Shown in pieces: positions 23,879-62,098 of a stretch of 64,000 bases of DNA; the stretch's first letter is position 1; every line of letters begins with the position of its first letter. Where the stretch lies: NCBI GenBank assembly GCA_964535955.1, contig CAZHVK010000007.1, positions 4,118 through 68,117 on the forward strand, given 5' to 3'. The notes beneath the pieces were generated by a model. It saw only the letters and a program-made list of their open reading frames with translations. It did no database searches and had not been told where the DNA came from. Made by a program: the position numbers and the translations under genes. This DNA comes from an uncultured Methanosarcinales archaeon. Its GTDB lineage: Archaea > Nanobdellota > Nanobdellia > Woesearchaeales > CAXGTL01.

Positions 23879-24463
23879 TTATTTCTCTTTAGTCTTTAGA
23901 TAACCAAAATCACCAATATCTCCTGGATTAGTTCCATCTAATATATGCTCTGCAATTTTCTTCATTGTATACTGTCCACCACAATCAGCTTTGATCAATT
24001 CTATTGCATAACTTCTATGTGCAACTTGTTCTTTCTTATACATATCACAATGACAGCACACTAGTGTTATGTCTTTTCCTCTTTCTCCTGTTTTCCAATC
24101 ATGGTTAATCATTCCAGCTGCTTGAAGTGACTGGTCTAATGCATTTGTTCCTGCATATACAAACACATGTTCAATAAGGTCAGCATCTTGTCTAAGATTG
24201 AATTGTTCATAAAACTCATCAACAACTCTTTGTGCTTGTTCTCTTTTTCCTTCATTTGACCTATCATGACCTTCCCATCCATAGATGATGAGTCTTCCAT
24301 CTCCATAAACACCTGGCCTAAAGTCTTCAACACGTCTGTATGTCATTAGAACAATTGCTTTTTTTCCATTCTGTTTTAGCATTTGTTCTAGGTTTTGCTT
24401 ATCTACCACTCTTCCATTGTATTTTGGTTCTTGTTTTTTTTCTTTTTCTTTGTTTTCTTCCAT
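23879..24463 (-). CDS. hypothetical protein, paralog of the C-terminal domain of the upstream gene (conserved HVFxYxGxNA / CxCHxD motifs)
   Basis: 194 aa; aligns with residues ~190-330 of the 24470-25531 product (MTYxRV, GxLxIY, RVxDxFY, HVFVY, HD, CCHCD). Confidence 0.5.
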   Translation of the reverse strand: MEENKEKEKKQEPKYNGRVVDKQNLEQMLKQNGKKAIVLMTYRRVEDFRPGVYGDGRLIIYGWEGHDRSNEGKREQAQRVVDEFYEQFNLRQDADLIEHVFVYAGTNALDQSLQAAGMINHDWKTGERGKDITLVCCHCDMYKKEQVAHRSYAIELIKADCGGQYTMKKIAEHILDGTNPGDIGDFGYLKTKEK

Positions 24464-24469
24464 TTTTAT

Positions 24470-25531
24470 TCACCTTGTTCTATTTCTTATCCCTCTTGTC
24501 TTTTTCCATCTCCTTTTTTTTCCATTACCAATCTTTCCAACACCTTTTTTCTTGTTTGTTTTATAATCTTCAACAATCATGTTAGCAATTGTCTGCAGAT
24601 CACTTTCATATATCAGATCCATGTCATGAGCATCTGCAGTCTTTTTCTTCTCATCATAATGACAACCGCACGAAGCTAGTGACACTTTACCATGTAGGTC
24701 ATGTTGTATGTACAAAGCAGCATCTAACATTTCTTTCCAAGCATTTAACCCAGAATACAAAAACACATGTGCAATCTCATCACCACGCTGTCTAAGATTA
24801 TCAAAATCATCATAAAACTGGTCAATTACTCTTTTCGCAATACCAACAGCATGATCACCACCAAACTCCACACCAGAGATCTTTGCATCATATATTCTTA
24901 GTTTTCCACTACAATGTACACCATAACAAGGTTTGACTCGATTGTAAGTCATGATAACAATAGCTCCATCAGCATCAACTAATCCTCCATACTTAAGTAT
25001 TAATTCTATATCTTTTCTTTTACTGTTCAAACTACCTTTCTTATACCTTACAGAAGTATGTAATTCACCATAAACATCAAATTCATATTTATGCGGATTC
25101 CAAGGCATTGTAAATCTTGTACCACTTACTTGTTCATAATCTATTGATTGTTTTTTATAATCAATTGGAATAATATTTCTAATGTTTTCAAACATGTCAC
25201 TTAATTTCTTAGCATTTTCAGCACTTTCAATATCCTGTCCAAATAATATTCCATCTATTGCTGAATAATCAATCCCATTACAAGGTTTCCCATCTAAACA
25301 ATCTTCTAAACATGGAAGCCTGACTACCTTGACTTTCATCTTAGTTTGATTACTATTATTATGCCTGCCTGGTTGTTTAAATTCATAAACATCTGATAAA
25401 AGTTTATGAAAACCACGTTTTTCCATGCTTTGTTCATCAGGCTCAGCACTTATCAAACCAAGCACATATTCATATTTTATTTGTTCAATTTGTTTTTTTA
25501 ATTCTGATTCATTTATTGACATTTTATTCAC
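24470..25531 (-). CDS. hypothetical protein, N-terminal Cys-containing domain plus the paralogous His/Cys-motif domain
   Basis: 353 aa; C-terminal half paralogous to 23879-24463; Arg/Lys-rich tail. Confidence 0.5.
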   Translation of the reverse strand: MNKMSINESELKKQIEQIKYEYVLGLISAEPDEQSMEKRGFHKLLSDVYEFKQPGRHNNSNQTKMKVKVVRLPCLEDCLDGKPCNGIDYSAIDGILFGQDIESAENAKKLSDMFENIRNIIPIDYKKQSIDYEQVSGTRFTMPWNPHKYEFDVYGELHTSVRYKKGSLNSKRKDIELILKYGGLVDADGAIVIMTYNRVKPCYGVHCSGKLRIYDAKISGVEFGGDHAVGIAKRVIDQFYDDFDNLRQRGDEIAHVFLYSGLNAWKEMLDAALYIQHDLHGKVSLASCGCHYDEKKKTADAHDMDLIYESDLQTIANMIVEDYKTNKKKGVGKIGNGKKRRWKKTRGIRNRTR

Positions 25532-25971
25532 CTTTTATATTCCTCTACATACATCTCTACCAAATCTTTTAATTTGAATGTTATTTCTTTTGTTTTAACA
25601 ATTTCTTGTACTTGTGATTTAACAAAACTTCTCACATCTTGAGGTGATCCGCTTGTATAGATAATTGGAATCTTGTCATCAATATCTCTTATGTCACTTA
25701 ATGTCTGTGGACCTTGTGCAATACCCTTGTATGCATCATTATCAAGCACAACCAATGAATAACACTCTGTTTCGATTTCATCAACAGCTTGGTCTTGTTT
25801 ACAATAAATAATCTCGATTCCATAATCTTTTTTTATTGCTTCTGAAAATGAAGTTTCATAAATAAGATCATCATCTACCCAAAGTATCTTTACAATGACA
25901 TCTACTGAAAGCTTTGCATCTTTAACATATTTTACATCTTCAAACTTCCCAAAATAATCATCATCAATCAT
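25528..25971 (-). CDS. receiver (REC) domain protein with N-terminal DYFGKFEDVKY motif
   Basis: ILWVDDD, LVVLDNDA, IPIIYTSG, K in CheY-like order; start placed at internal Met (MIDDDYF) so that the overlap with the LRR gene is removed. Confidence 0.5.
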   Translation of the reverse strand: MIDDDYFGKFEDVKYVKDAKLSVDVIVKILWVDDDLIYETSFSEAIKKDYGIEIIYCKQDQAVDEIETECYSLVVLDNDAYKGIAQGPQTLSDIRDIDDKIPIIYTSGSPQDVRSFVKSQVQEIVKTKEITFKLKDLVEMYVEEYKR

Positions 25972-25972
25972 T

Positions 25973-26473
25973 TTATATGTAAAACTGCACCCCTCTGTCA
26001 CATAATTTTTTGAGTTCTCTTTTAATGTCAGGATCTTTATTATCAATCAGATTTCCTACTAAATTCAGTCCTCGTAGTTCTTCTAAATCATCTAAATGTC
26101 TTATTTTTTTGATTTGATTGCGTACTAAATGCAGATATTGTAATCTGCTTAATTCAGCTATTTCTCTAGGGATCTCTTTTAGTCCTTGATTATCCAAGTC
26201 TAACCTGACGACATGTTTATTTTCAATTATCACATTAACATCATTATCATCTGCAGGAGGTTTATTAAAATATTCTTTAACATCTTTACCAAAATATTTC
26301 TGAGTCATAAACTGTAATACAGTATATTCATATGGATCCAGCCTGCTTCCATGAATATCAATAATTTCTTTTTTATCATAACCAATCTTAATTACAGGAA
26401 GTTCTGAATCTTCAACAAATTTCACTTTCCTAAATCTTTTAAAATATTCATCAAACATTTTTGTTACCTCCAA
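25973..26473 (-). CDS. leucine-rich-repeat protein with N-terminal EYFKRFRKVKF motif
   Basis: LxxLxLxxNxI repeats (LDLDNQGLKEIP, LQYLHLVRNQI, LRGLNLVGNLI). Confidence 0.6.
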   Translation of the reverse strand: MEVTKMFDEYFKRFRKVKFVEDSELPVIKIGYDKKEIIDIHGSRLDPYEYTVLQFMTQKYFGKDVKEYFNKPPADDNDVNVIIENKHVVRLDLDNQGLKEIPREIAELSRLQYLHLVRNQIKKIRHLDDLEELRGLNLVGNLIDNKDPDIKRELKKLCDRGVQFYI

Positions 26474-26530
26474 AATATTCTATTTTGATGGTCCATCAAA
26501 TTGTTTCTCAATTTGAGTTTCCTCCATCAA

Positions 26531-27244
26531 TCATTCTTTGTTCCTCAAAACTTTGTAATCCACGCAATGCACAATTGTTTTTTTAATATCAATATTATTT
26601 TCTTCAAAATAAGGTTTTAGATCATGAAGCACTTTGTTAAAACTATGTTTACTAGCAGCAGCAATCCTTATTGTACCATTACTCAGTATCCTAAACTCAG
26701 GTATTTTTTCCATTGTATGTGCAATATTTTTTTCATACAATTCTGTTGAAACAATATCACTTATCTCATGAGTCTTGGTATCAATCATCCTAATTCCTTT
26801 TCCTTTTTTGCTTATTCCACACGCAATTATCTTGTTATACTGTTTACCAACCACATTGCCAAGGACAACAGGCAGTATATCAGACACACAAATATCCAGA
26901 TTATATATTTCCTCAACAAACAACTGCAGATTAGCAAGATCAACAACCTTTGTAGTCAAGTAATACAAATGTCCATGAGACTTTTGTGTTCCTGTTCCAA
27001 TGTACAGTTCACCTAGGGTATTATCTTTTTTATTAGGAAGTATTCCTACAATATTTATCCTGCTCAAACATGTTCTTCCATAAGGAAGTGTAAAACTAAT
27101 ATCTTTGCCAAGATAAACATTAGCATTATCAATCCTTATTATTTGTTTCAGAGGCATGAATACTGAAGCTGTTTTCTTGCCTTTACCAGCAGCAACTTCA
27201 TGTTCAAGCTTTCCAAATCTATTAAAATAATTGTCTTGTGTCAT
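26531..27244 (-). CDS. hypothetical protein, member of a 3-paralog family in this operon
   Basis: shares DILPVVLG, GTG...Y, GIRMI blocks with 29521-30273; N-terminal NYFNRF. Confidence 0.5.
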   Translation of the reverse strand: MTQDNYFNRFGKLEHEVAAGKGKKTASVFMPLKQIIRIDNANVYLGKDISFTLPYGRTCLSRINIVGILPNKKDNTLGELYIGTGTQKSHGHLYYLTTKVVDLANLQLFVEEIYNLDICVSDILPVVLGNVVGKQYNKIIACGISKKGKGIRMIDTKTHEISDIVSTELYEKNIAHTMEKIPEFRILSNGTIRIAAASKHSFNKVLHDLKPYFEENNIDIKKTIVHCVDYKVLRNKE

Positions 27245-28797
27245 TTTAGATTTACATTTACCTCTCCAATTATAATATTAGGAATATCTTTAGGTTCTCT
27301 TACATGGTATATCATGAAATCAGCATCATTAAACTGTTCTTGATAATGTTCAACATCATATCTTCCAGTATAAACAACACAGACCCTGTTCACATCAGGC
27401 AGATTTTTAAGATAATTAAAAAACATATCCAACCCACTTATCTCAAGATCAGACACAACAACAATGTCTAGTTCTTTTTCAGACTCAGTAACAATCTTTT
27501 TCAATTTTTCAAGATTTTTATTATCAATAACAGTTCCGCCATTGTTTGACTTTGTAAGACCAGAAAATATACTCAATTGATCAGTCTGAAAACTTTTTTC
27601 TAATTCTATGTCATCAACAACTGCATTAAACAGATAAACACCTACTTTTGATTCATTCTCTAGATAAGCTTTTGCAGTTGCAACACAAGCAGCTTCTGCA
27701 TAAGGCTCGCAATGTGTCATACTTCCTGATATATCCTTGATTATCAATACATTTGGCACCTGGTCAGAATCTTTGTAAGCAATTCCTTGTTCTTTTATCC
27801 ATGTTTTACCCAAACCAGGACAAAATGGTTTTCCAAGTGAAGCAAAAACATCTACATCAAGCGGATTATCATCTATTTCATACTCTTTGTGTGAATAAGG
27901 AAACATTGACCCATTTTCATGTATTTTTCTTTTCCTTATCTCAGGCCTGTAGTTTTCAGCAAGATTCTCAAAATAAATAATGTCTCTTAATTTATTATCA
28001 CCAACCATATTACCAGGCAGTATACCATTTGCAACAAGACGACCCACAATTTTATCAAATTCATCTTTGTCTTTTGAACATGCTAATTGTTTCAAAGCTT
28101 TCTTGATTTCATTTTTATCATATGCTTTTTCTCCAAACACTCCAAAACCAGGCATACCCATTGACAAATCTTCTGGCTTCATACCATAAAGATTCATGAT
28201 ATCAACAATTATTCTTGTAAATCTTTTAACATTTCTTACTTCATTTTTTGCATCAAAATAATCAATTGTTGACAATCTCTCTACTTGTTTTTTCAGGAAT
28301 TTATCTAATTTATTTTGTTTTAATCCAAGATCTTTTTTTATTGCATTCTGCATATATGCTTTGATAACTTTCATAACAGGATTGTTTGGTTTGATAACCC
28401 TTAGAAAGTCAGTGATTTCATCAACATTTTTCTTTAGTATTAGATCTAGGTTAACACAAACATCAGAATAAATTCTTGAAGCCTGCAGCCCAATATTTTC
28501 ATCAACTTTTAGACCAGCTTGATCCATTAAAATAGCTCTAAAAAGATCATACGGATTATACAGATAATGATCAATTTCATGTGACAATAATCCTGTAAAT
28601 ATTGTATCATATGATAATCCTTTTCCATGTAATTCTTGAACAAATGCATCACATACTTCTATTTGATGATCCCTCATATCAATTGAAGCTGTTTGAGTCT
28701 CATCAAAACCTACTAACATTGGCCTTGGCAAATTAGGAAAATAAAACTTTTTTCTTACTAATTTCCAGTTTTCCAGCATTATTTGTTCTAGGTTCAT
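27241..28797 (-). CDS. von Willebrand factor A (vWA) domain protein
   Basis: C-terminal MIDAS motif DISGSMT followed by an alpha/beta pattern; start set at Met-13 giving ATGA overlap with the upstream gene. Confidence 0.55.
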   Translation of the reverse strand: MNLEQIMLENWKLVRKKFYFPNLPRPMLVGFDETQTASIDMRDHQIEVCDAFVQELHGKGLSYDTIFTGLLSHEIDHYLYNPYDLFRAILMDQAGLKVDENIGLQASRIYSDVCVNLDLILKKNVDEITDFLRVIKPNNPVMKVIKAYMQNAIKKDLGLKQNKLDKFLKKQVERLSTIDYFDAKNEVRNVKRFTRIIVDIMNLYGMKPEDLSMGMPGFGVFGEKAYDKNEIKKALKQLACSKDKDEFDKIVGRLVANGILPGNMVGDNKLRDIIYFENLAENYRPEIRKRKIHENGSMFPYSHKEYEIDDNPLDVDVFASLGKPFCPGLGKTWIKEQGIAYKDSDQVPNVLIIKDISGSMTHCEPYAEAACVATAKAYLENESKVGVYLFNAVVDDIELEKSFQTDQLSIFSGLTKSNNGGTVIDNKNLEKLKKIVTESEKELDIVVVSDLEISGLDMFFNYLKNLPDVNRVCVVYTGRYDVEHYQEQFNDADFMIYHVREPKDIPNIIIGEVNVNLK

Positions 28798-29528
28798 AGT
28801 TCTGACAACCTCATCATCGGCCTCCACCTGCATGCAAAATAAGGATATTGCAGATATTTGTTAATCACCATTGCCATGTCATTTCTTTCTGCCAAGACAA
28901 CTTGAACCCTTTCTGCCGTCATTGAATCATGCTTATATGTTGAACCAGTTGAATAAACAGTGATAAAATCATTTGGAATATCATAATTATAAATACGCAC
29001 TAAAAAAGTTTCCAAAGAGTTTGCATGATCAATAACCTCTTCTTTACCATATAATCCTGAAAAATAAACTACTTTCTCAACTTCTTTAAATTCTATATCA
29101 TCTTTAAAATCACTAGTCAATTTTTCAAAGTGATAAGCAATACAATTTGAAACATCTTTTCTATGACCATGATCAGGTCTATAATCTAATGTAATATATC
29201 CTTCATCAAGATACATAAATGGATCATACATCAAAAGCTCATCTGTCTTGATCCTATTATCAACTTCAATCATCTTTGAAAATTGTTTCATCAGCTTTGA
29301 AAGCTTTGAATAATATTGTATTTCATTAATACCAGGCGCAATAATATCATTTACCAAATTATATAACATAGGATATTGCTTAGCATGTTTATGATTAACC
29401 CTCACAAAATCCAAAGCCTCATAAGTCACAACAATCAATTTTGGTTTTAGTTTCTCAATTACCAATTCCTTTATATCTTTAAATTCCACATCCTTGAATT
29501 TTTCAAAATATTCATTCATTTTAATCAA
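28794..29528 (-). CDS. hypothetical protein with N-terminal MIKMNEYFEKFKDVEFKD motif
   Basis: 244 aa; N-terminal 25 aa nearly identical to the next gene product. Confidence 0.5.
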   Translation of the reverse strand: MIKMNEYFEKFKDVEFKDIKELVIEKLKPKLIVVTYEALDFVRVNHKHAKQYPMLYNLVNDIIAPGINEIQYYSKLSKLMKQFSKMIEVDNRIKTDELLMYDPFMYLDEGYITLDYRPDHGHRKDVSNCIAYHFEKLTSDFKDDIEFKEVEKVVYFSGLYGKEEVIDHANSLETFLVRIYNYDIPNDFITVYSTGSTYKHDSMTAERVQVVLAERNDMAMVINKYLQYPYFACRWRPMMRLSEL

Positions 29529-30273
29529 CTCTCTTGATAAGGTAATAATTTTTACAATACTCCAGTGTTTTTTCCAAACTTATAGCATGCTTTTTAAGAT
29601 AAGAACCAAGATCAACTAAGTTCTCACTCCTAATACAATTATCATCAAAGACCATCTTAAGCAAGATCTTGTTTTGATCATTATCAATCATAAAACTAGG
29701 TACAAAACCAGTTGGAAATGGTTCTAGTTTCTTGTATTCTTTGTTTGATATTATATCAGTAATAACATTATCACTACACTTGATCATTCTCAATCCTTGA
29801 GAATACATGCTTCTTCCACACACAAGCAAATGTTCTGAAGGATAGCCCTCAAACAGTTCTTCATCTTCAAGCACAACAGGCAAAATATCTTTTACAAAAA
29901 CATCTACTGAACTTATTCTCTTAAGATATATCTCATTTTCTGATGTATCTTTATTTTGTTTTAATCCAAATGTATAGATATTACCCATAGCGCAGTCTCC
30001 TGTTCCTGCATAAATCCTTGTTGCATCATCAAAATATTCTCTATCAATATAAGTACCACAGACATTAATCCTATGACAAGGACCCAAAGGATTATATTTT
30101 GCTTTGACAGGAACTTCAAACATTAGTTTATTGTCTAAATATACTTTTTTGTCATTGTAACTCAGCCTATTCACAAACACTGGTTTTTGATTTGGTTTTT
30201 CAGCTAGTAAAATCCCTATCTCTTTATATTCCACATCCTTAAACCTGTCAAAATAATCATTCATTTTAATCAA
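29521..30273 (-). CDS. hypothetical protein with N-terminal MIKMNDYFDRFKDVEYKE motif, paralog of 26531-27244
   Basis: 250 aa; conserved blocks DILPVVLE, GTGDCAMGNIY, GLRMIKC. Confidence 0.5.
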   Translation of the reverse strand: MIKMNDYFDRFKDVEYKEIGILLAEKPNQKPVFVNRLSYNDKKVYLDNKLMFEVPVKAKYNPLGPCHRINVCGTYIDREYFDDATRIYAGTGDCAMGNIYTFGLKQNKDTSENEIYLKRISSVDVFVKDILPVVLEDEELFEGYPSEHLLVCGRSMYSQGLRMIKCSDNVITDIISNKEYKKLEPFPTGFVPSFMIDNDQNKILLKMVFDDNCIRSENLVDLGSYLKKHAISLEKTLEYCKNYYLIKRVD

Positions 30274-30274
30274 C

Positions 30275-31636
30275 TCATTCTGACTGACCCTGATCTAGTG
30301 CTTCTAATCTTGTATCTCTTTCTAATTCAGGAAATATTGGATGATTCTTATCACTAGCATATTCAGCTGCCTTGCTTATCAAACCTTGTTTTCTAAAACA
30401 CACATAATTCTTAACAAAAGCAGCTTGATCTCTAAATCTGTCTGAAATACCTTTTGCAAGTTTCTGCATTGCATAAAGATTAAGTACCATTGCTTGTTGA
30501 TCTTTTTCAAGCCCAGTCAAATAACTAGACTGCATTTCAGCTTTGTGCCAAGTCACATAAGGCAGTACTTTATACATGTGCTCAATATTTACTTCATCAG
30601 CACCAGTATACCATGCAAGTGCTCTTGCATATTTTTTCCATGCTTTTAATGTTCTTGCTGATAATGGATTCTTTATATTCTGACAAGCAAAATCACTCCA
30701 ATGACATTCATTTGAAAAACATTTGTCATTTTTTCTTTTTACTCCAAGCCTATGCTGGCATGTTGACAATTCTGTGTCAGCAAATATAAAATACAGTTCA
30801 GCATCATCATTAATTCTTATATCCTTGATTTCTTCTTCAGCTTTTTTTAATTCTTCATAACCTAGTAATTGAATTCCAAGCCCTTCTCCCAATTTCCACT
30901 TAAACTGTTCAATAATTACCTTGACTTCTTGCATTTTTTCTTGGTAAGACTTGCCTTTTGCATTATAGATGCCAAATATTTGGTTTGCAACAACAGCATT
31001 TTCTAATAATTTATGCGCGCCATTATCCATCTCAGAGATCCTGCTTCTTTGGGTAACACTTGGTGACATTGATTCTGTTGCAATGTCAAACCTTTCAACA
31101 ATAACTTCTGTCAAAGCTTGGTTAGACCTGTCAGCCCAGTTACAAGTAGCAAACAATGGAAAATCTCCTGTTCTGATCATTCCAGATAAATATTTCCAAT
31201 TACCTCTATCGATTCCGTCTACAAACAAGTTTAGTTTTGATCCAGGAAACCTACTAAGCTCATCAATTATTTTTGCTCTGTTAAGAACAAAATAAGTCCA
31301 TATAATTGTTTCATCTCCTAGTTTTGTCAAGTCACCAAGATGCGGCCTTGCAATTGTTTTTTCTTCTGTCTGCTCAGCATGTCCTCTTATTTCTGACGCA
31401 AGCACAACTTCTCTTGGCAGACCATACATCAAGCTGACAACACTTTCACATGAAGTCGTCTTTCCAAGACCATACTCTCCATAGATCATGTGCTTTCCAT
31501 TCACAATGCATGACAAGATCTCAAACAATAATGATGAGTTAAACTCTTTATCATCTATCATAATGTCAGGCACACACAAGTACAGATTTTTTTTTGCATA
31601 ATCATATATTTCATTGACTTTTTCTCTAAGTTCCAT
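30275..31636 (-). CDS. P-loop NTPase (AAA/MoxR-like?)
   Basis: Walker A GEYGLGKTT, downstream LNLFVDGIDRG (Walker B-like) and LNRA segment; long helical C-terminal region. Confidence 0.5.
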   Translation of the reverse strand: MELREKVNEIYDYAKKNLYLCVPDIMIDDKEFNSSLLFEILSCIVNGKHMIYGEYGLGKTTSCESVVSLMYGLPREVVLASEIRGHAEQTEEKTIARPHLGDLTKLGDETIIWTYFVLNRAKIIDELSRFPGSKLNLFVDGIDRGNWKYLSGMIRTGDFPLFATCNWADRSNQALTEVIVERFDIATESMSPSVTQRSRISEMDNGAHKLLENAVVANQIFGIYNAKGKSYQEKMQEVKVIIEQFKWKLGEGLGIQLLGYEELKKAEEEIKDIRINDDAELYFIFADTELSTCQHRLGVKRKNDKCFSNECHWSDFACQNIKNPLSARTLKAWKKYARALAWYTGADEVNIEHMYKVLPYVTWHKAEMQSSYLTGLEKDQQAMVLNLYAMQKLAKGISDRFRDQAAFVKNYVCFRKQGLISKAAEYASDKNHPIFPELERDTRLEALDQGQSE

Positions 31637-32402
31637 TTTTATACCTCTTTGTAAATACCTCTTTTAATTTTGCTTCAACATAAAAAGTGACTTTTTCATC
31701 AATATCATATTTTCCATGTTCTATTTCTGCAAAAAATATACGAAAATATGCATCAGTTTCTAAACTAGGATCTATCTCACAAATTTTTTCATAGACTTCA
31801 GAAGGTTTCACACCTATATCTTTTAGATCTAATAAATTATCTACAAGTTCTTTTTTAGGAACAGGAAGTTCAATACCAGGTATTGGTTGAACACCTACTT
31901 CAACCTGTCTTGCAAGGTTATAACCTTGCACAAGTATGTCTAATGCAAGGGCTTGTTCATCAATTGGTTTGTCCTTGTTTTTGTATTTTAGAAACTCTTC
32001 TCTAGGATTATCACTTTTCACAAGTATTTCAAGCATTTTCATGTAGTGATCTTTACCAACATTCTTTGAAACAGCAATATCAATTACATCTTTATCAAAC
32101 TCTGCTTCATTTCCACCAGTATTACCAAATATAGGAACATCATAAACATGTTTTACAGCTTTTGCTAGACAATTACCTTCATTTCCTTGTTTTAGAATAC
32201 TTTTATTATCATCAACAGGCATATCTTTGTCAGTTATGATTGCATCTGGTCTTTCAGCTAATGCTTTTTCAATACCTTGATCAGCATTTTCAGCAGTGAT
32301 TATCTCTAAGTTATGGTCAATCTTTTTCAGATACTTGACTACTTTATCAAGATATTTTTTATCATCATCTACAACCAGGATTTTCTTTTTTTGTTTATTC
32401 AT
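31626..32402 (-). CDS. receiver (REC) domain protein with unknown C-terminal domain
   Basis: KKILVVDDD..., IITDKDMP (phospho-Asp position), conserved Lys; 258 aa. Confidence 0.6.
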   Translation of the reverse strand: MNKQKKKILVVDDDKKYLDKVVKYLKKIDHNLEIITAENADQGIEKALAERPDAIITDKDMPVDDNKSILKQGNEGNCLAKAVKHVYDVPIFGNTGGNEAEFDKDVIDIAVSKNVGKDHYMKMLEILVKSDNPREEFLKYKNKDKPIDEQALALDILVQGYNLARQVEVGVQPIPGIELPVPKKELVDNLLDLKDIGVKPSEVYEKICEIDPSLETDAYFRIFFAEIEHGKYDIDEKVTFYVEAKLKEVFTKRYKNGT

Positions 32403-32404
32403 TT

Positions 32405-32788
32405 TTATCTCCCCGCATATCTTGGATTTTTTTCAACAGCAGACTCAAGCATCCTACCTAGACAACCTAATTCTCTTCCCAAATACTTTCTCTCATTAGG
32501 AAGTTCATTCATATAATTGCTCAACCCAATCAAATAATTAGCAAGACTTCTAGTTGGTACTCTTGGTTCAGGCAATACATGAGCATATTTCCCATCATAA
32601 GTCCATATTGCATCAATAAAACAGTCAACAATATCATACTCAAAATCTTCAAAGTCTTTGTCCATCACAAAATCAGAATCTCTTGCCAAGTCTTCTAAAA
32701 GTTTGATATAATTTTCAAATACCCTAACTGCTTTTTTTGCAATAAACTGTTTATAGTATTCCAAGTTTTCTTTTTGTTCTGGTTTCAT
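32405..32788 (-). CDS. hypothetical helical protein
   Basis: 127-aa ORF, 2-nt gap from the REC gene. Confidence 0.4.
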   Translation of the reverse strand: MKPEQKENLEYYKQFIAKKAVRVFENYIKLLEDLARDSDFVMDKDFEDFEYDIVDCFIDAIWTYDGKYAHVLPEPRVPTRSLANYLIGLSNYMNELPNERKYLGRELGCLGRMLESAVEKNPRYAGR

Positions 32789-33599: not shown

Positions 33600-34526
33600 A
33601 TGATAAAAAGAAAACTCATCAAACAAGGATTGGGTGGATTTACAATATATCTGCCTAAGAAATGGATAGACCACTACAAACTAAGACCAGGAGATGAGAT
33701 AAACATATTAGAAGTAGAGAATAATCTCTTGTTATCAGCAAAAGCAAGACATGAAACAAAACAGATAACACTTAATTTTACACAAGAACACATAGATAAG
33801 ACATTGATCAGGATAAGCTTGAATGATGTATATAGACTAGGATATGACAAGATCACAGTCAATTACAAGACAGCTGAACAAAGAAAAAGAATTCTAAAGA
33901 TCGTTGATGAATATTTGCTTGGGTTTGAAGTGACAGAAGAGAAAAGAGATAAATTTGTAATTGAAAATGTGACAGAGCCAAGTGAAGAAAAGCAAGAAAC
34001 AATTGTCAAGAGAATGTTTTATCTTATCAAAGAGAGTTTTAAGACAGTAAATAAACACATGGCAAAAAATGAATTCAAAAGAATAGATAAGATGAGCCAA
34101 TTAACAAAAAAAGTCGATAGATATAATAATTACTGCAGAAGAAATATTTCTAAAAAAAGGTTTCAGAATGAAAGAGTGTATTTTTATTGGGGTCTTTATA
34201 TCCAGCTTTTATTGATACAACACAGCTTGTTTTATTTTTATAGGGTAATGCATGATACAAAAAAGATAAAGATCAAAACAAGCATAATAAAAATATTCAA
34301 GCAACTGCAGTCTAATTTTGATGAACTGACAACTGCATTTTTTAAAAAAGATTGTAATGAAATAGGAAAGATAAACAACAGGACAAACAAATATTTCTAC
34401 AACCATATACAAAAACAGATCATCAAGTCAAAAGGCAAAGATTCTTTATTATTATATTATCTTGGAGAACTCGGTAGAGTGATCTATCTCTCAACATCAC
34501 CTATGCTTGGGATCTTGTTTGAGTAA
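33600..34526 (+). CDS. AbrB/SpoVT-type swapped-hairpin N-domain regulator with PhoU-like helical C-domain
   Basis: N-terminal LIKQGLGGFTIYLPKKWIDHYKLRPGDEINI matches AbrB-type DNA-binding fold; helical remainder as in archaeal AbrB-PhoU regulators. Confidence 0.45.
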   Translation: MIKRKLIKQGLGGFTIYLPKKWIDHYKLRPGDEINILEVENNLLLSAKARHETKQITLNFTQEHIDKTLIRISLNDVYRLGYDKITVNYKTAEQRKRILKIVDEYLLGFEVTEEKRDKFVIENVTEPSEEKQETIVKRMFYLIKESFKTVNKHMAKNEFKRIDKMSQLTKKVDRYNNYCRRNISKKRFQNERVYFYWGLYIQLLLIQHSLFYFYRVMHDTKKIKIKTSIIKIFKQLQSNFDELTTAFFKKDCNEIGKINNRTNKYFYNHIQKQIIKSKGKDSLLLYYLGELGRVIYLSTSPMLGILFE

Positions 34527-34551
34527 AGTATGAACTAGATTATTGAATAGA

Positions 34552-36474
34552 CTAATTTTGATAAAGATAATCAAATACAGTGTCAGCTACATCAAGATAA
34601 TTCTTTACAACACTATTATCATATTCATATGACATTTCAACAAACCTTGCTAATCTAAGACTTTCTGTAAACACACGTTCAATTGATCTCTTTGTAAAAG
34701 TATTCTTAACAACAAAATCATTATCAAAATGATTTCTCAGCTTGACATAATTACCAACATATTCAATTACTTTGCCAATATCACACCCAGATTCTAACTC
34801 AAAACCTTGGTCAAGCAAAGCCCTTGCAATATCTTTATACTCTGCACCAGCAGCAGCTCCTGAATAATCACCTAAAACTTCTGAATCAAACCAATTATCA
34901 TCTTTAGTATCATTGTGCGCAACTGTTCTTTTTTCATAATGCTCTGAATTCTTTGAAATATTTTCATACAATCTTTTGTATTTTTCAAAATCCTGTTCTT
35001 GTTCTATTGTATCACACAAACCCATTTTCAATTTATTAAAACTAAAGAATTCTGCATAAGTTCTTTTATTAAAAAGCACATCATCAACATGGTTTTTCAT
35101 CTCAGTATGAAACATTGACAAAACATACATTCTATGGTTATATTTATCATCTTCAATACCCAGCTTATCAAATAATTCTTGTTTAACATGATCAAGTGTT
35201 TTTTCATTGTCTTTTGTATTTTTTGTTTTCTCATTTGCTTCATCTTTTCTATCTTGACCAATGATCTTAGTGCACACAATAAACAAATTTTCATTATCAA
35301 GACTACCACCATTATTAAAATTATAAACTTTTGTTGTATATTTTGCTAACTGATCATTTTTACTAGCTATTTGTGAGACTAATTTTTCTTTTTCATATAA
35401 TGATCTTCCCATACAAACTTTTGGAAAAAAATCTTTTGTACCTAGGATAGCACCATGACTAGCGATCAGCTCTTTCTCATGATCCTGAAAACCATCTAGG
35501 TTGTGTCCTGACAAATAAAGTATTGGAACCTTTTTATTGAATCTTTTCAATAATCCGCTTACTTCTCTTAATGTTTCAATACCAGTGCCTAATGCAGGCC
35601 CACACACCCAATTATTATCAATAAATATTGCAGCACAATTTTCAAAATCCTCTTCCTTAGGATAATAAGCAAAATCATGCACAATTACTTTTTCATTTGC
35701 ATAAGGTCTATTATCTCCTAGATTCAGAAACTCTTTATCACTTAACACTAAAAAATGATAATTCATCCTTGTCTGCATATTACCAGCACGCAGTGATTTA
35801 TCAATATAAGGTAAAAATTTTTTCCACATATCATTTTTATAACTATGCTGCCATCTTGATAATGAATAACTAGGCACCATTGTTCCTGTCAATTGATAGA
35901 ATAAGATATGCATCATCGTAGGAAAATTCTCAAAATCAGTCATCTGTGCATCTGAATATACTTTTGCAAATTCTGACCCATACAATGTTGAAAGACCTTT
36001 GATCAAAGCCATTTCACTCATATGACCATTATGATTAGATTTATAATTTATGATTTTTATTCCAGGAAAATCTTTTCTTAATTTTTCAGCAGTCAATAAT
36101 TTTTCACCAACCTTGCATATTCCTCCAAAACTTTTTCTTTTATTAATCTTAACAACAGCAAAACTTGGTTTTTGCAGACCTCTGGATTTGACACTTCTTA
36201 AGATACTTTTATATTTCTGATTTCCTTTCATAACTTCTTCATGAGAAAAGTCAACAAGCAAAAGATCTATCCCATTGTGCTTGATAAACTCCTTACATTC
36301 ATCTTCAGCATAAGCATGTAAGACATAATCAGAAGGATAATAATCATTTACCTTCCAACAAGAATCATCAACTACAATGATTGTTCCTTTTTTCTCAGTT
36401 AATATCTTTTCTATTTCTTGATCTAGTGAAACTTTCTTTTTCTTAATATCTACACCATTATCTACATTAGCCAT
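34552..36474 (-). CDS. large hypothetical protein with REC-like N-terminus
   Basis: GTIIVVDDS...IDLLLVDFSHEE receiver-like; central region with CGPALGTG and LYLSGHNLDG motifs; 640 aa. Confidence 0.4.
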   Translation of the reverse strand: MANVDNGVDIKKKKVSLDQEIEKILTEKKGTIIVVDDSCWKVNDYYPSDYVLHAYAEDECKEFIKHNGIDLLLVDFSHEEVMKGNQKYKSILRSVKSRGLQKPSFAVVKINKRKSFGGICKVGEKLLTAEKLRKDFPGIKIINYKSNHNGHMSEMALIKGLSTLYGSEFAKVYSDAQMTDFENFPTMMHILFYQLTGTMVPSYSLSRWQHSYKNDMWKKFLPYIDKSLRAGNMQTRMNYHFLVLSDKEFLNLGDNRPYANEKVIVHDFAYYPKEEDFENCAAIFIDNNWVCGPALGTGIETLREVSGLLKRFNKKVPILYLSGHNLDGFQDHEKELIASHGAILGTKDFFPKVCMGRSLYEKEKLVSQIASKNDQLAKYTTKVYNFNNGGSLDNENLFIVCTKIIGQDRKDEANEKTKNTKDNEKTLDHVKQELFDKLGIEDDKYNHRMYVLSMFHTEMKNHVDDVLFNKRTYAEFFSFNKLKMGLCDTIEQEQDFEKYKRLYENISKNSEHYEKRTVAHNDTKDDNWFDSEVLGDYSGAAAGAEYKDIARALLDQGFELESGCDIGKVIEYVGNYVKLRNHFDNDFVVKNTFTKRSIERVFTESLRLARFVEMSYEYDNSVVKNYLDVADTVFDYLYQN

Positions 36475-60596: not shown

Positions 60597-60629
60597 TTAG
60601 ATAAATATAAATGCCACAAAATCATTGCA

Positions 60630-60719
60630 TGGGTCTGGCCGGACTCGAACCGGCGATTAACGCCTATCTTTTCCTAATGGAATGTAAGGGCGCTGTCATA
60701 GCCACTAGACCACAAACCC
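60630..60719 (-). tRNA. tRNA-Val(UAC) with ~17-nt anticodon-loop intron
   Basis: reverse complement: GGGTTTG TG GTC-TAGTGGCTAT-GAC A GCGCC CTTACA[intron]A GGCGT TAAT GCCGG TTCGAGT CCGGC CAGACCC A. Confidence 0.7.
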
Positions 60720-60778
60720 AATTATATATAGAAAACAAACCACATATATAAAAAGGTTACTGTAAAAAGCTTTATATA

Positions 60779-61849: not shown

Positions 61850-61953
61850 TTTTTTTTAAGAAACATCAAAAATACAGAGTATTTTTGTGGCTTTGAAATT
61901 CCATAAGAATTTCAAAAGGTTTTTAAACAAATATCAAATAATTTAAATATACT

Positions 61954-62028
61954 GCCCCGTTGGTGTAGTCCGGCCAATCATCTTGCCCTTTCGAGGCAAG
62001 GACTCGGGTTCAAATCCCGGACGGGGCA
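61954..62028 (+). tRNA. tRNA-Glu(UUC), intronless
   Basis: GCCCCGT TG GTG-TAGTCCGGCCAAT-CAT C TTGCC CTTTCGA GGCAA GGAC TCGGG TTCAAAT CCCGG ACGGGGC A. Confidence 0.8.
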
Positions 62029-62098
62029 TTTATTATTCTCAATCATAGATAACTTTTTAAGTGCAATACGAATTCTCAGTTTATTAAAACAAAAATAG

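What the first reader, a model, noticed from the sequence alone, without database searches (positions are those of the whole stretch)
25528..30273. Shared N-terminal DYFxKFKDVEFK motif on five proteins with unrelated C-terminal domains
The products of 28794-29528 (MIKMNEYFEKFKDVEFKD), 29521-30273 (MIKMNDYFDRFKDVEYKE), 25973-26473 LRR (FDEYFKRFRKVKFVED), 25528-25971 REC (DDDYFGKFEDVKYVKD) and, more weakly, 26531-27244 (DNYFNRFGKLEHEV) all begin with the same ~15-residue aromatic/basic motif. They then diverge into LRR, receiver or paralogous globular domains. A common N-terminal tag on different modules suggests docking to a shared partner such as the vWA or ATPase protein, or a shared targeting signal, comparable to cargo-targeting peptides or dockerins.
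Basis: seen in the sequence. Interest (0 to 1): 0.85.

Follow-up and report, generated by a model that had tools for sequence, protein, structure and literature searches.

The report
Shared N-terminal docking tag, archaeal operon
Five unrelated proteins in one operon of a tiny (DPANN) archaeon all begin with the same short peptide (…YFxKFxxVE…), and the same tag marks the accessory proteins of every related operon found, so it is most likely an address label that plugs varied sensor and signalling modules into one ATPase/vWA machine.

Summary
All five ORFs start (from their ATG) with M-x(1-4)-Y-F-x-[KR]-F-x-x-[VL]-[EK]. The motif occurs nowhere else in the 64 kb window.

In eight orthologous operons from other Woesearchaeota/Nanoarchaeota contigs the tag recurs. 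In total 33 of 300 ORFs carry it. All 33 lie inside the operon, on the operon's strand. Residue shuffling gives 0.37 on average.

The tag sits on at least eight unrelated families: X (a flavodoxin-like protein always placed just upstream of the vWA gene), small REC-like proteins, LRR, a weak TPR-like protein and several unknown families. It never sits on the two invariant core proteins. These are a divergent MoxR-like AAA+ ATPase and a protein with an invariant HExxH N-domain fused to a CoxE-type vWA domain with a complete MIDAS.

Tags on non-homologous proteins of one genome resemble each other more (49%) than tags on orthologues from different genomes (36%; 0 of 2000 permutations). Synonymous codons differ between copies. 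AlphaFold leaves the tag as a low-confidence N-terminal leash. No operon protein has a membrane segment.

Best reading: a short linear docking or recognition peptide for a shared, co-evolving receptor in the core. The receptor and any cleavage are inferred, not shown. I found no published description.

The parts
30220..30264 (-). Tag 1: MNDYFDRFKDVEYKE, the first 15 codons of the 247-aa protein (gene 29521-30264). The body is a family seen only in this window, paralogous to the 237-aa protein.
29475..29519 (-). Tag 2: MNEYFEKFKDVEFKD, the first 15 codons of protein X (gene 28794-29519, 241 aa). X is the universal tagged component, always immediately upstream of the vWA gene and coupled to it by an ATGA overlap.
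27197..27244 (-). Tag 3 (weaker): MTQDNYFNRFGKLEHE, the start of the 237-aa paralogue (gene 26531-27244).
26411..26458 (-). Tag 4: MFDEYFKRFRKVKFVE, the start of the 161-aa LRR protein (gene 25973-26458).
25921..25971 (-). Tag 5: MIDDDYFGKFEDVKYVK, the start of the 147-aa receiver-like protein (gene 25528-25971).
27241..28797 (-). Untagged core protein (518 aa from the ATG used by orthologues; the mechanical ORF runs to 28833). It has a helical N-domain with invariant H85-E86-x-x-H89, a disordered linker, and a C-terminal CoxE-type vWA domain with invariant MIDAS residues D367/S369/S371/T434/D462. Leading candidate for the tag receptor (inferred).
30275..31636 (-). Untagged core protein: a divergent MoxR-like AAA+ ATPase (453 aa). 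Walker A is GEYGLGKTT and Walker B is IIDE. There is a weak AAA_lid_2 match and a conserved Cys/His cluster in the lid region.
31626..32402 (-). Large receiver protein (258 aa) that heads the operon. It is untagged here but carries the tag in two other genomes (L006 MNYYKRFK, L010 MKNYYNKFEDLE).
23879..25531 (-). Two untagged paralogues that close the operon: 353 aa (24470-25531) and 194 aa (23879-24463). The family is conserved at the 3' end of the operons in L004 and L006.

Best explanation
The YFxKF peptide is a short linear docking or recognition tag. Consensus: M-x(1-5)-[YF]-[FY]-x-[KR]-F-[KR]-x-[LMV]-[ED]. About half of the tags also have a weaker 'E-L-x-V' element roughly 14 residues downstream.

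The tag sits on a flexible N-terminal leash. It recruits a variable, genome-specific set of soluble modules to the invariant core of a DPANN-specific operon. The modules include X, receiver-like proteins, LRR, a TPR-like protein and unknown families. The core is a MoxR-like AAA+ ATPase plus an HExxH-domain/vWA protein.

By analogy with characterised MoxR/vWA pairs, the vWA domain would dock on the ATPase ring. The tag would be captured by the vWA protein in one of two ways. Either it lies in the cleft of the zincin-like N-domain, or its conserved acidic residue at +8 supplies the sixth ligand of the MIDAS metal. ATP hydrolysis would then remodel or release the bound module.

Shown here: the tag exists, is conserved, is operon-restricted, is carried by unrelated families, evolves in concert and is not modelled as part of the folded domain. 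Inferred: that it binds a partner, and which partner.
For: - The tag is present at the N-terminus of 33 ORFs across 9 genomes or contigs. All are inside the operon. The shuffle expectation is 0.37.
- It is carried by at least eight families with no detectable mutual similarity beyond the tag, and never by the ATPase or the vWA protein.
- In family X, whose members are only 14-34% identical to the window protein, the tag's K and F are 2 of only 6 invariant columns. All full-length X relatives found among 1.84 billion representative proteins start with the tag.
- Concerted evolution: tag identity is 0.486 for same-genome/different-family pairs and 0.357 for different-genome/same-family pairs. 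0 of 2000 permutations reach the observed difference.
- Copies use different synonymous codons and unrelated upstream DNA. The genomes range from 26 to 42% GC.
- In the AlphaFold model of X (pLDDT 82.5) residues 1-22 have low confidence and precede the folded domain.
- The vWA protein has an invariant HExxH and a complete MIDAS. Its vWA fold is closest to NorD, Rpn10, CMG2 and the Mdn1 MIDAS domain.
- In NorQ/NorD the vWA finger docks in the AAA+ pore, and the MIDAS is proposed to take an acidic ligand from the target (PMC13036017).
- Kaur et al. propose that vWA domains of MoxR-vWA systems capture a peptide from a partner protein (PMC7159879).
- D or E occupies tag position +8 in 21 of 30 tags.
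Against: - No binding was tested.
- The receptor assignment rests on analogy.
- The +8 acidic residue is not universal, and it is poorly conserved in L006.
- The tag is not significantly amphipathic as a helix.
- The N-domain of the vWA protein matches no Pfam peptidase family, and its fold could not be classified because vWA hits dominated both fold searches.
- Part of the within-genome similarity could come from local 5' duplication. The 247-aa and 241-aa genes share 20 identical bases upstream of and through the start codon.
Confidence: 0.55

Rival explanations
1. Processing or degradation signal. The HExxH domain is an active zincin. Together with the MoxR-like ATPase it forms a two-component, FtsH-like AAA+ metalloprotease. 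The tag is then its dedicated N-terminal degron or pro-peptide. Tagged proteins would be cleaved behind the tag, or destroyed, to switch the system.
For: - H85, E86 and H89 are invariant in all 8 family members, and the motif is kept in the 26%-identical Marsarchaeota homologue.
- In the model, three short strands precede the HExxH helix, which is compatible with a zincin substrate cleft.
- The tag is followed by a variable, low-confidence linker.
- The tag always lies within 7 residues of the free N-terminus.
Against: - No Pfam peptidase family is matched.
- The third zinc ligand and the fold are not established.
- No conserved cleavage-site residue follows the tag.
- Known MoxR ATPases remodel their targets rather than unfold them (general knowledge; PMC13036017).
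- This is a sub-case of 'shared partner' rather than a true alternative.
Confidence: 0.2
2. Homotypic zipper. The tags bind each other, not a receptor, and bundle all tagged proteins into one complex. This is how the effector-associated domains (EADs) or Death-fold domains of bacterial MoxR-vWA conflict systems are proposed to work.
For: - Concerted within-genome evolution is equally expected if the tags pair with each other.
- There are several tagged proteins per operon, up to 8 in L006 by manual count (7 by the looser pattern; MSYYKCFK misses the [KR] position).
- The EAD precedent (PMC7159879).
Against: - EAD logic requires a copy on a core component, but neither the ATPase nor the vWA protein has one.
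- A core of about 9-12 residues without a significant amphipathic moment is short for a self-associating unit.
- The public contig L012 shows one tagged gene, although that contig is truncated.
Confidence: 0.12
3. Targeting signal for export, transfer to a host cell, or loading into a compartment. The analogies are contractile-injection cargo leaders, encapsulin or microcompartment peptides, and the T4 capsid-targeting sequences.
For: - An N-terminal position plus a linker resembles cargo leaders.
- DPANN archaea are often episymbionts (general knowledge).
Against: - No operon protein has a transmembrane segment. The maximum 19-residue Kyte-Doolittle mean is 1.41.
- No shell, secretin, pilin or injection component appears in the Pfam, NCBIfam or PADLOC scans of the operon.
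- The tag is hydrophilic and aromatic, unlike a Sec, Tat or class III signal peptide.
- Tagged genes are confined to the operon.
Confidence: 0.05
4. Not a protein signal. The similarity would reflect recent duplication or gene conversion of 5' gene ends, or a nucleotide-level translation or regulatory element shared by the genes.
For: The 247-aa and 241-aa genes share 20 identical bases spanning the region upstream of the start and the first codons, and 30 of 36 bases within the motif.
Against: - The other window pairs show only 19-25 of 36 identical bases and unrelated upstream DNA.
- The seven L006 copies use different synonymous codons (TAT/TAC, AGA/CGA/CGG, TTC/TTT) and unrelated upstream DNA.
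- The peptide is conserved across genomes of 26-42% GC and on orthologues only 14-34% identical overall.
Confidence: 0.03

Closest known systems
Effector-associated domains (EADs) of bacterial MoxR-vWA ternary conflict systems (Kaur, Burroughs, Iyer, Aravind 2020, PMC7159879)
   Same: A MoxR-type ATPase plus vWA core. The neighbouring genes encode varied modules that share one N-terminal element. That element is proposed to couple the modules to the core.
   Different: - EADs are globular domains present on a core component as well as on the effector, and they act homotypically.
- Here the element is a peptide of about 12-25 residues that is absent from the core proteins.
- The lineage here is DPANN archaea.
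- There is no VMAP, iSTAND, FtsH or beta-propeller third component.
- PADLOC models give no hit to the core.
MoxR/vWA chaperone pairs: NorQ-NorD, CbbQ-CbbO, RavA-ViaA, CoxD-CoxE
   Same: - An adjacent AAA+ ATPase and vWA protein.
- A complete MIDAS (DxSxS-T-D).
- A VWA_CoxE Pfam match in 7 of 8 members, and NorD as the best Foldseek hit.
- The vWA protein has a separate N-terminal domain joined by a disordered linker, as in NorD.
   Different: - The ATPase is very divergent: only a weak AAA_lid_2 match, 453 aa, and a Cys/His insert.
- The N-domain carries an invariant HExxH.
- No metalloenzyme client is encoded nearby.
- Instead there is a family of tagged accessory proteins.
Bacterial microcompartment encapsulation peptides and encapsulin cargo-loading peptides
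   Same: A short terminal peptide plus a poorly conserved linker, on functionally different proteins of one locus, serving one receptor.
   Different: - No shell or encapsulin gene is present.
- The tag is not a significant amphipathic helix.
- The sequence is unrelated.
Dockerin-cohesin modules of cellulosomes
   Same: A plug-and-socket logic that attaches varied modules to one scaffold, with species-specific pairing. This parallels the genome-specific tag flavours seen here.
   Different: - Dockerins are calcium-binding domains of about 70 residues, usually C-terminal and extracellular.
- No dockerin or cohesin Pfam hit was found.
Short vWA-binding motifs, such as the Ku-binding motif on the Ku80 vWA domain and the acidic ligand of the Rea1/Mdn1 MIDAS
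   Same: A vWA domain captures a short linear peptide or a single acidic residue of a partner. Such complexes are among the structural neighbours of this vWA domain.
   Different: These are eukaryotic systems with unrelated motif sequences. Binding here is hypothetical.

Membership tests
MoxR-type AAA+ ATPase / vWA partner pair | vWA fold with a complete MIDAS motif (DxSxS...T...D) | tested here: met
MoxR-type AAA+ ATPase / vWA partner pair | Adjacent AAA+ ATPase of the MoxR clade (Walker A and B, helix-2 insert clade, MoxR lid) | tested here: inconclusive
   Walker A (GEYGLGKTT) and Walker B (IIDE) are invariant. Only weak matches support the clade: AAA_lid_2 (E=7e-4, below cut-off) and the ChlI lid (E=0.07). 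Precomputed AAA_5 hits on orthologues are faint or weak. Clade membership was not established by phylogeny or structure.
Effector-associated domains (EADs) | The same module is present on a core component and on the adjacent effector (homotypic pairing) | tested here: not met
   The tag is absent from the ATPase and the vWA protein in all 9 loci.
Effector-associated domains (EADs) | An independently folding globular domain | tested here: not met
   The conserved core is about 9-12 residues. In the AlphaFold model residues 1-22 of X have low confidence, with only one helical turn.
Microcompartment or encapsulin cargo peptides | A shell or encapsulin gene in the locus | tested here: not met
   No such Pfam family was found on any operon protein scanned.
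Microcompartment or encapsulin cargo peptides | An amphipathic helical peptide | tested here: inconclusive
   The mean helical hydrophobic moment is 0.377, against 0.332 +/- 0.165 for shuffles. Positions 0, 1, 4 and 7 would share one helical face (inference).
Zincin metallopeptidase (N-domain of the vWA protein) | An HExxH motif on a helix next to a small beta-sheet | tested here: met
   H85, E86 and H89 are invariant. The motif lies in modelled helix 75-92, preceded by strands 39-41, 49-52 and 57-61.
Zincin metallopeptidase (N-domain of the vWA protein) | Membership of a known peptidase family, with the third metal ligand identified | tested here: not met
   No Pfam peptidase or DUF2201_N hit was found at E up to 10 in any of the 8 members. 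The PDB profile search found nothing. vWA hits dominated both fold searches.
Response-regulator receiver (147-aa tagged protein) | A Pfam Response_reg match above the gathering score | tested here: inconclusive
   24.4 bits against a cut-off of 30.2, E=3e-5. From sequence inspection, a DDD and an LDND motif sit at the expected strand ends, but the acceptor Asp is lost in some orthologues.
Leucine-rich repeat (161-aa tagged protein) | A Pfam LRR match above the gathering score | tested here: met
   LRR_8, 36.9 bits against a cut-off of 27; LRR_4, 32.3 bits against 27.
Sec, Tat or archaeal class III signal peptides | A hydrophobic h-region after the N-terminus | tested here: not met
   The tags are charged and aromatic. 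No 19-residue window in any operon protein exceeds a Kyte-Doolittle mean of 1.41.

The most novel reading that the evidence does not exclude
The HExxH-vWA protein and the divergent MoxR-like ATPase form a previously unrecognised two-component AAA+ zincin machine. The YFxKF peptide is its private, co-evolving N-terminal degron or processing signal. On this reading, DPANN archaea run a plug-and-play signalling or conflict hub. Receiver-like, LRR and other modules are docked to the hub and then released or destroyed by tag-directed proteolysis. That would be the functional equivalent of Death-fold/EAD adaptor networks, reduced to a 12-residue linear motif.
Probability: 0.2. Interest if true: 0.8.

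Novelty: new variant of a known kind. Interest (0 to 1): 0.62.

Why it matters
MoxR/vWA machines are widespread, but how they select their clients is largely unknown. Here the clients appear to be labelled in the genome itself. A 12-residue tag marks every accessory protein of the operon and changes flavour from genome to genome. That gives a directly testable handle on recognition: tag peptide against the vWA N-domain, the MIDAS or the ATPase.

It would also show that modular adaptor logic, so far described as globular EAD or Death-like domains in multicellular bacteria, exists as a short linear motif in genome-reduced DPANN archaea. These organisms spend about 10 kb of a roughly 1 Mb genome on this operon. 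In addition, the tag is a practical search key for assigning otherwise unannotatable DPANN proteins to this system.

Tried and rejected
- **AlphaFold of a tag-(GGGGS)6-vWA fusion with a paired alignment.** No interface test was therefore possible.
- **Foldseek against afdb50.** The library was not installed.
- **Word-index homologue searches with X.** With the single sequence and then with an alignment, these returned only 1 and 3 proteins. The exhaustive HMMER search found only 9. The family is small and fast-evolving.
- **Genome and metagenome scans with the vWA profile.** These added only 3 loci. One of them is a distant Marsarchaeota operon. It keeps HExxH and the MIDAS but has no tag, and its accessory genes are repeat-rich paralogues.
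- **Amphipathic-helix hypothesis.** The hydrophobic moment is not above that of shuffles.
- **PADLOC defence models.** No hit to the core proteins.
- **NCBIfam.** Only a weak ViaA-like match to the vWA region.
- **Chance or compositional bias.** Rejected by the shuffle test.
- **A purely DNA-level repeat.** Rejected by the codon comparison, except for the 247-aa/241-aa gene pair.
- **Literature.** Searches for MoxR/vWA in DPANN archaea, or for such a motif, found no description.
Full report
**Context.** The window is AT-rich (about 30% GC) and encodes archaeal housekeeping genes: split RNA polymerase B and A', MutS/MutL, RtcB and a family B DNA polymerase. The closest relatives of the operon proteins come from MAGs labelled Woesearchaeota and Nanoarchaeota. 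The source is therefore a cellular DPANN archaeon, not a virus.

The finding lies in a minus-strand operon. Several adjacent genes overlap by a few bases; the ATGA overlap between X and the vWA gene was checked directly. In order:
- a 258-aa receiver protein, 31626-32402
- a 453-aa AAA+ ATPase, 30275-31636
- a 247-aa protein, 29521-30264
- the 241-aa protein X, 28794-29519
- the vWA protein, 27241-28797
- a 237-aa protein, 26531-27244
- a 161-aa LRR protein, 25973-26458
- a 147-aa receiver-like protein, 25528-25971
- two paralogues of 353 aa and 194 aa, 23879-25531

**Observation.** The five motifs exist exactly as described. Public gene calls on identical contigs use the next ATG (247 and 241 aa), which puts the tag 3-6 residues from the N-terminus in every case.

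A six-frame scan of all 64 kb finds the motif in real ORFs only at these five N-termini. The 247-aa and 237-aa proteins are paralogues over their full length (E=1e-17). The 247-aa and 241-aa proteins are similar only in residues 1-32. The LRR assignment is solid, and the 147-aa protein is receiver-like but below the Pfam threshold.

**Orthologous operons.** The vWA protein has only nine relatives in a 5.8-billion-protein collection. I fetched the contigs of six of them, and three further loci from the genome and metagenome scans. Eight loci carry a clearly orthologous operon with the order receiver, ATPase, (methyltransferase), X, vWA, small proteins.

In every one, the accessory proteins begin with the tag:
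- L004: MNSFFQKFREME and MNYYKRFRQLRY
- L006: eight proteins starting MS[YF]YK[RKC]F or MNYYKRF
- L008: ...AFFQKFKDEE, ...EFFGKFQGME, ...GFFEKFGDME, ...DYFGKFKSMN
- L009 to L012 and L015: similar tags

Over ten loci, 33 of 300 ORFs of at least 60 aa (both strands) match ^M.{0,7}[YF][YFL].[KR]F. All 33 lie in the operon, on its strand. Shuffling the residues of every ORF gives a mean of 0.37 and a maximum of 2. The core motif occurs internally only three times in 59,746 residues.

**Anatomy of the tag.** Aligning 30 tags on the Y-F gives the following:
- position 0: Y in 21 and F in 9
- position 1: F in 21 and Y in 8
- position 3: K in 20 and R in 10
- position 4: F in all 30
- position 5: mostly K or R
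- position 7: L, M or V in 21
- position 8: E or D in 21
- position +15: L in 16 of 30, within a loose 'E-L-x-V' element

The region between the tag and the folded domain is variable and charged. In the AlphaFold model of X (9-sequence alignment, pLDDT 82.5, pTM 0.80), residues 1-22 are the least confident part, with 10-residue block means of 57 and 48. They form only one helical turn, and the folded alpha/beta domain starts near residue 23. The tag is therefore modelled as a leash, not as part of a fold. As a helix it is not significantly amphipathic: 0.377 against 0.332 +/- 0.165 for shuffles.

**Who carries it.** All-against-all BLAST of the operon proteins separates the tagged proteins into these groups:
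- X, always immediately upstream of the vWA gene and coupled to it
- a 300-316-aa family
- small receiver-like proteins
- a 191-210-aa 'VLWVDPF' family
- a 154-aa family in L010
- the window-specific 247/237-aa pair
- the LRR protein
- a 136-aa protein with weak, sub-threshold TPR matches
- in two genomes, the large receiver protein that heads the operon

The ATPase, the vWA protein, the terminal 171-194-aa family, the methyltransferase and the neighbouring 572-640-aa family are never tagged. That last family has an APH-like kinase as its neighbour in L008.

**Evidence for a shared partner.** Tags on non-homologous proteins of the same genome are 48.6% identical (n=46). Tags on homologous proteins of different genomes are 35.7% identical (n=70). 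Different-genome, different-family pairs are 34.1% identical. Permuting tags among genomes within families never reaches the observed excess (0 of 2000).

This concerted evolution is what a genome-specific receptor would impose. Tag-tag pairing or gene conversion would produce it too. Gene conversion is visible for one pair: the 247-aa and 241-aa genes share 20 identical bases spanning the start codon. It is not the general cause. The other window pairs, and the seven L006 copies, have unrelated upstream DNA and different synonymous codons. The peptide is also kept across genomes of 26-42% GC.

**Candidate receptor.** The vWA protein aligns well across eight sequences. H85-E86-x-x-H89 is invariant, and so is the complete MIDAS (D367, S369, S371, T434, D462). 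Its AlphaFold model (pLDDT 78.5) has three parts:
- a helical N-domain, in which three short strands precede the HExxH helix
- a disordered linker, residues 311-352
- a C-terminal vWA domain

The nearest solved relatives of the vWA domain are NorD, Rpn10, CMG2 and the Mdn1 MIDAS domain. Pfam sees VWA_CoxE in 7 of 8 members and nothing for the N-domain.

The ATPase has canonical Walker motifs, a weak MoxR-type lid match and a conserved Cys/His cluster.

In NorQ/NorD, the vWA finger docks in the AAA+ pore while the MIDAS and the N-domain are thought to hold the client (PMC13036017). Kaur et al. propose that the vWA domains of MoxR-vWA conflict systems capture a peptide of a partner protein (PMC7159879). 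By analogy I place the tag on the vWA protein, either in the zincin-like cleft or with the +8 acidic residue on the MIDAS metal. This step is inference.

**Alternatives.**
- A processing or degron role for the HExxH domain is a live sub-hypothesis (about 0.2).
- Homotypic tag pairing is possible. It lacks a copy on the core and has only a very short interaction unit.
- Export or compartment targeting is unlikely. No operon protein has a membrane segment, no shell or secretion genes were found, and tagged genes are confined to the operon.
- A distant Marsarchaeota operon keeps the HExxH-vWA protein and the ATPase but has no tag. Its accessory genes are repeat-rich paralogues. The tag is therefore an innovation of the Woesearchaeota/Nanoarchaeota branch.

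**Comparison and novelty.** Functionally the tag resembles EAD adaptors, microcompartment or encapsulin peptides and dockerins, but it fails the defining features of each (see the membership table). The core is a member of the MoxR/vWA kind, with an unusual HExxH N-domain. Four literature searches found no description of this operon or motif.

I rate it a new variant of a known kind. It follows adaptor-tag logic on a MoxR/vWA core, but as a heterotypic short linear motif in DPANN archaea. Interest is 0.62: a clear, statistically solid and testable feature in a rare, uncharacterised system, with its mechanism still inferred.

Noticed in passing
window 29505-29540 and 30250-30285 (- strand): The 247-aa and 241-aa genes share 20 identical bases (gagttgattaaaatgaatga) running from upstream through the start codon, plus 30 of 36 bases in the motif. 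This looks like a local duplication or conversion of the 5' gene end. It may show how the tag spreads to new genes.
   Followed up: partly
window 32405-32788 (- strand): The 127-aa protein just upstream of the operon's first receiver gene contains 'LEYYKQFIAK' at residues 9-18. This is a tag-like sequence with Q instead of K/R, as in the X relative P0017 ('DYFKQF'). It sits further from the N-terminus than usual and may be a sixth, degenerate tag.
   Followed up: no
window 30275-31636 (- strand), ATPase residues about 293-318: An invariant Cys/His cluster (C293, C306, C311, H312, C318) is inserted in the lid region of the MoxR-like ATPase. It looks like a zinc-binding insert, which I do not know from characterised MoxR proteins.
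   Followed up: no
window 33600-36474; L004 2814-5332; L006 1512-4703; L008 984-6118: Conserved synteny upstream of the operon. There is a divergently oriented protein resembling an AbrB/MazE N-terminus with a PhoU-like region (308 aa), and a 572-640-aa protein with a receiver-like N-terminus. Inspection of the window sequence shows an 'HNDTKDDN' stretch resembling a kinase catalytic loop. In L008 an adjacent 589-aa protein hits Pfam APH and, weakly, TCAD9 (ternary-complex-associated domain 9).
   Followed up: partly
L004 7942-9078; L006 7077-8192: Two orthologous operons carry an untagged SAM-dependent methyltransferase (Methyltransf_11/25) between the ATPase gene and the tagged genes. It is absent from the window.
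   Followed up: no
L013 5789-10006 (Marsarchaeota MAG): The distant homologue of the operon has three paralogues about 70% identical that flank the vWA gene. They are built of 20-residue 'GPAGDYAGAGMSGSASLTIN' repeats, which look like a beta-helix, and they carry no YFxKF tag.
   Followed up: partly
window 23879-25531 and 28794-29519: Protein X and the terminal 171-194-aa family share a weak profile-profile match around the 'FSGL / YAGTNA' strand-loop (hhalign E=2.8e-4, probability 41%). Several operon proteins may be diverged flavodoxin/receiver-like domains.
   Followed up: partly
L008 12176-13137; L006 12398-12757 (small receiver-like proteins): Judged by eye from the sequences, the expected phospho-acceptor Asp (window protein: 'VVLDND') is replaced in some tagged receiver-like paralogues. 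Examples are 'IIVNND' and 'VVITQA' in L008. This suggests pseudo-receivers. No histidine kinase was seen among the neighbouring genes scanned.
   Followed up: no
window 60629-60720 (-) and 61953-62029 (+): Two tRNA-Glu(TTC) genes lie 1.2 kb apart on opposite strands. One is 92 nt long, which may indicate an intron.
   Followed up: no
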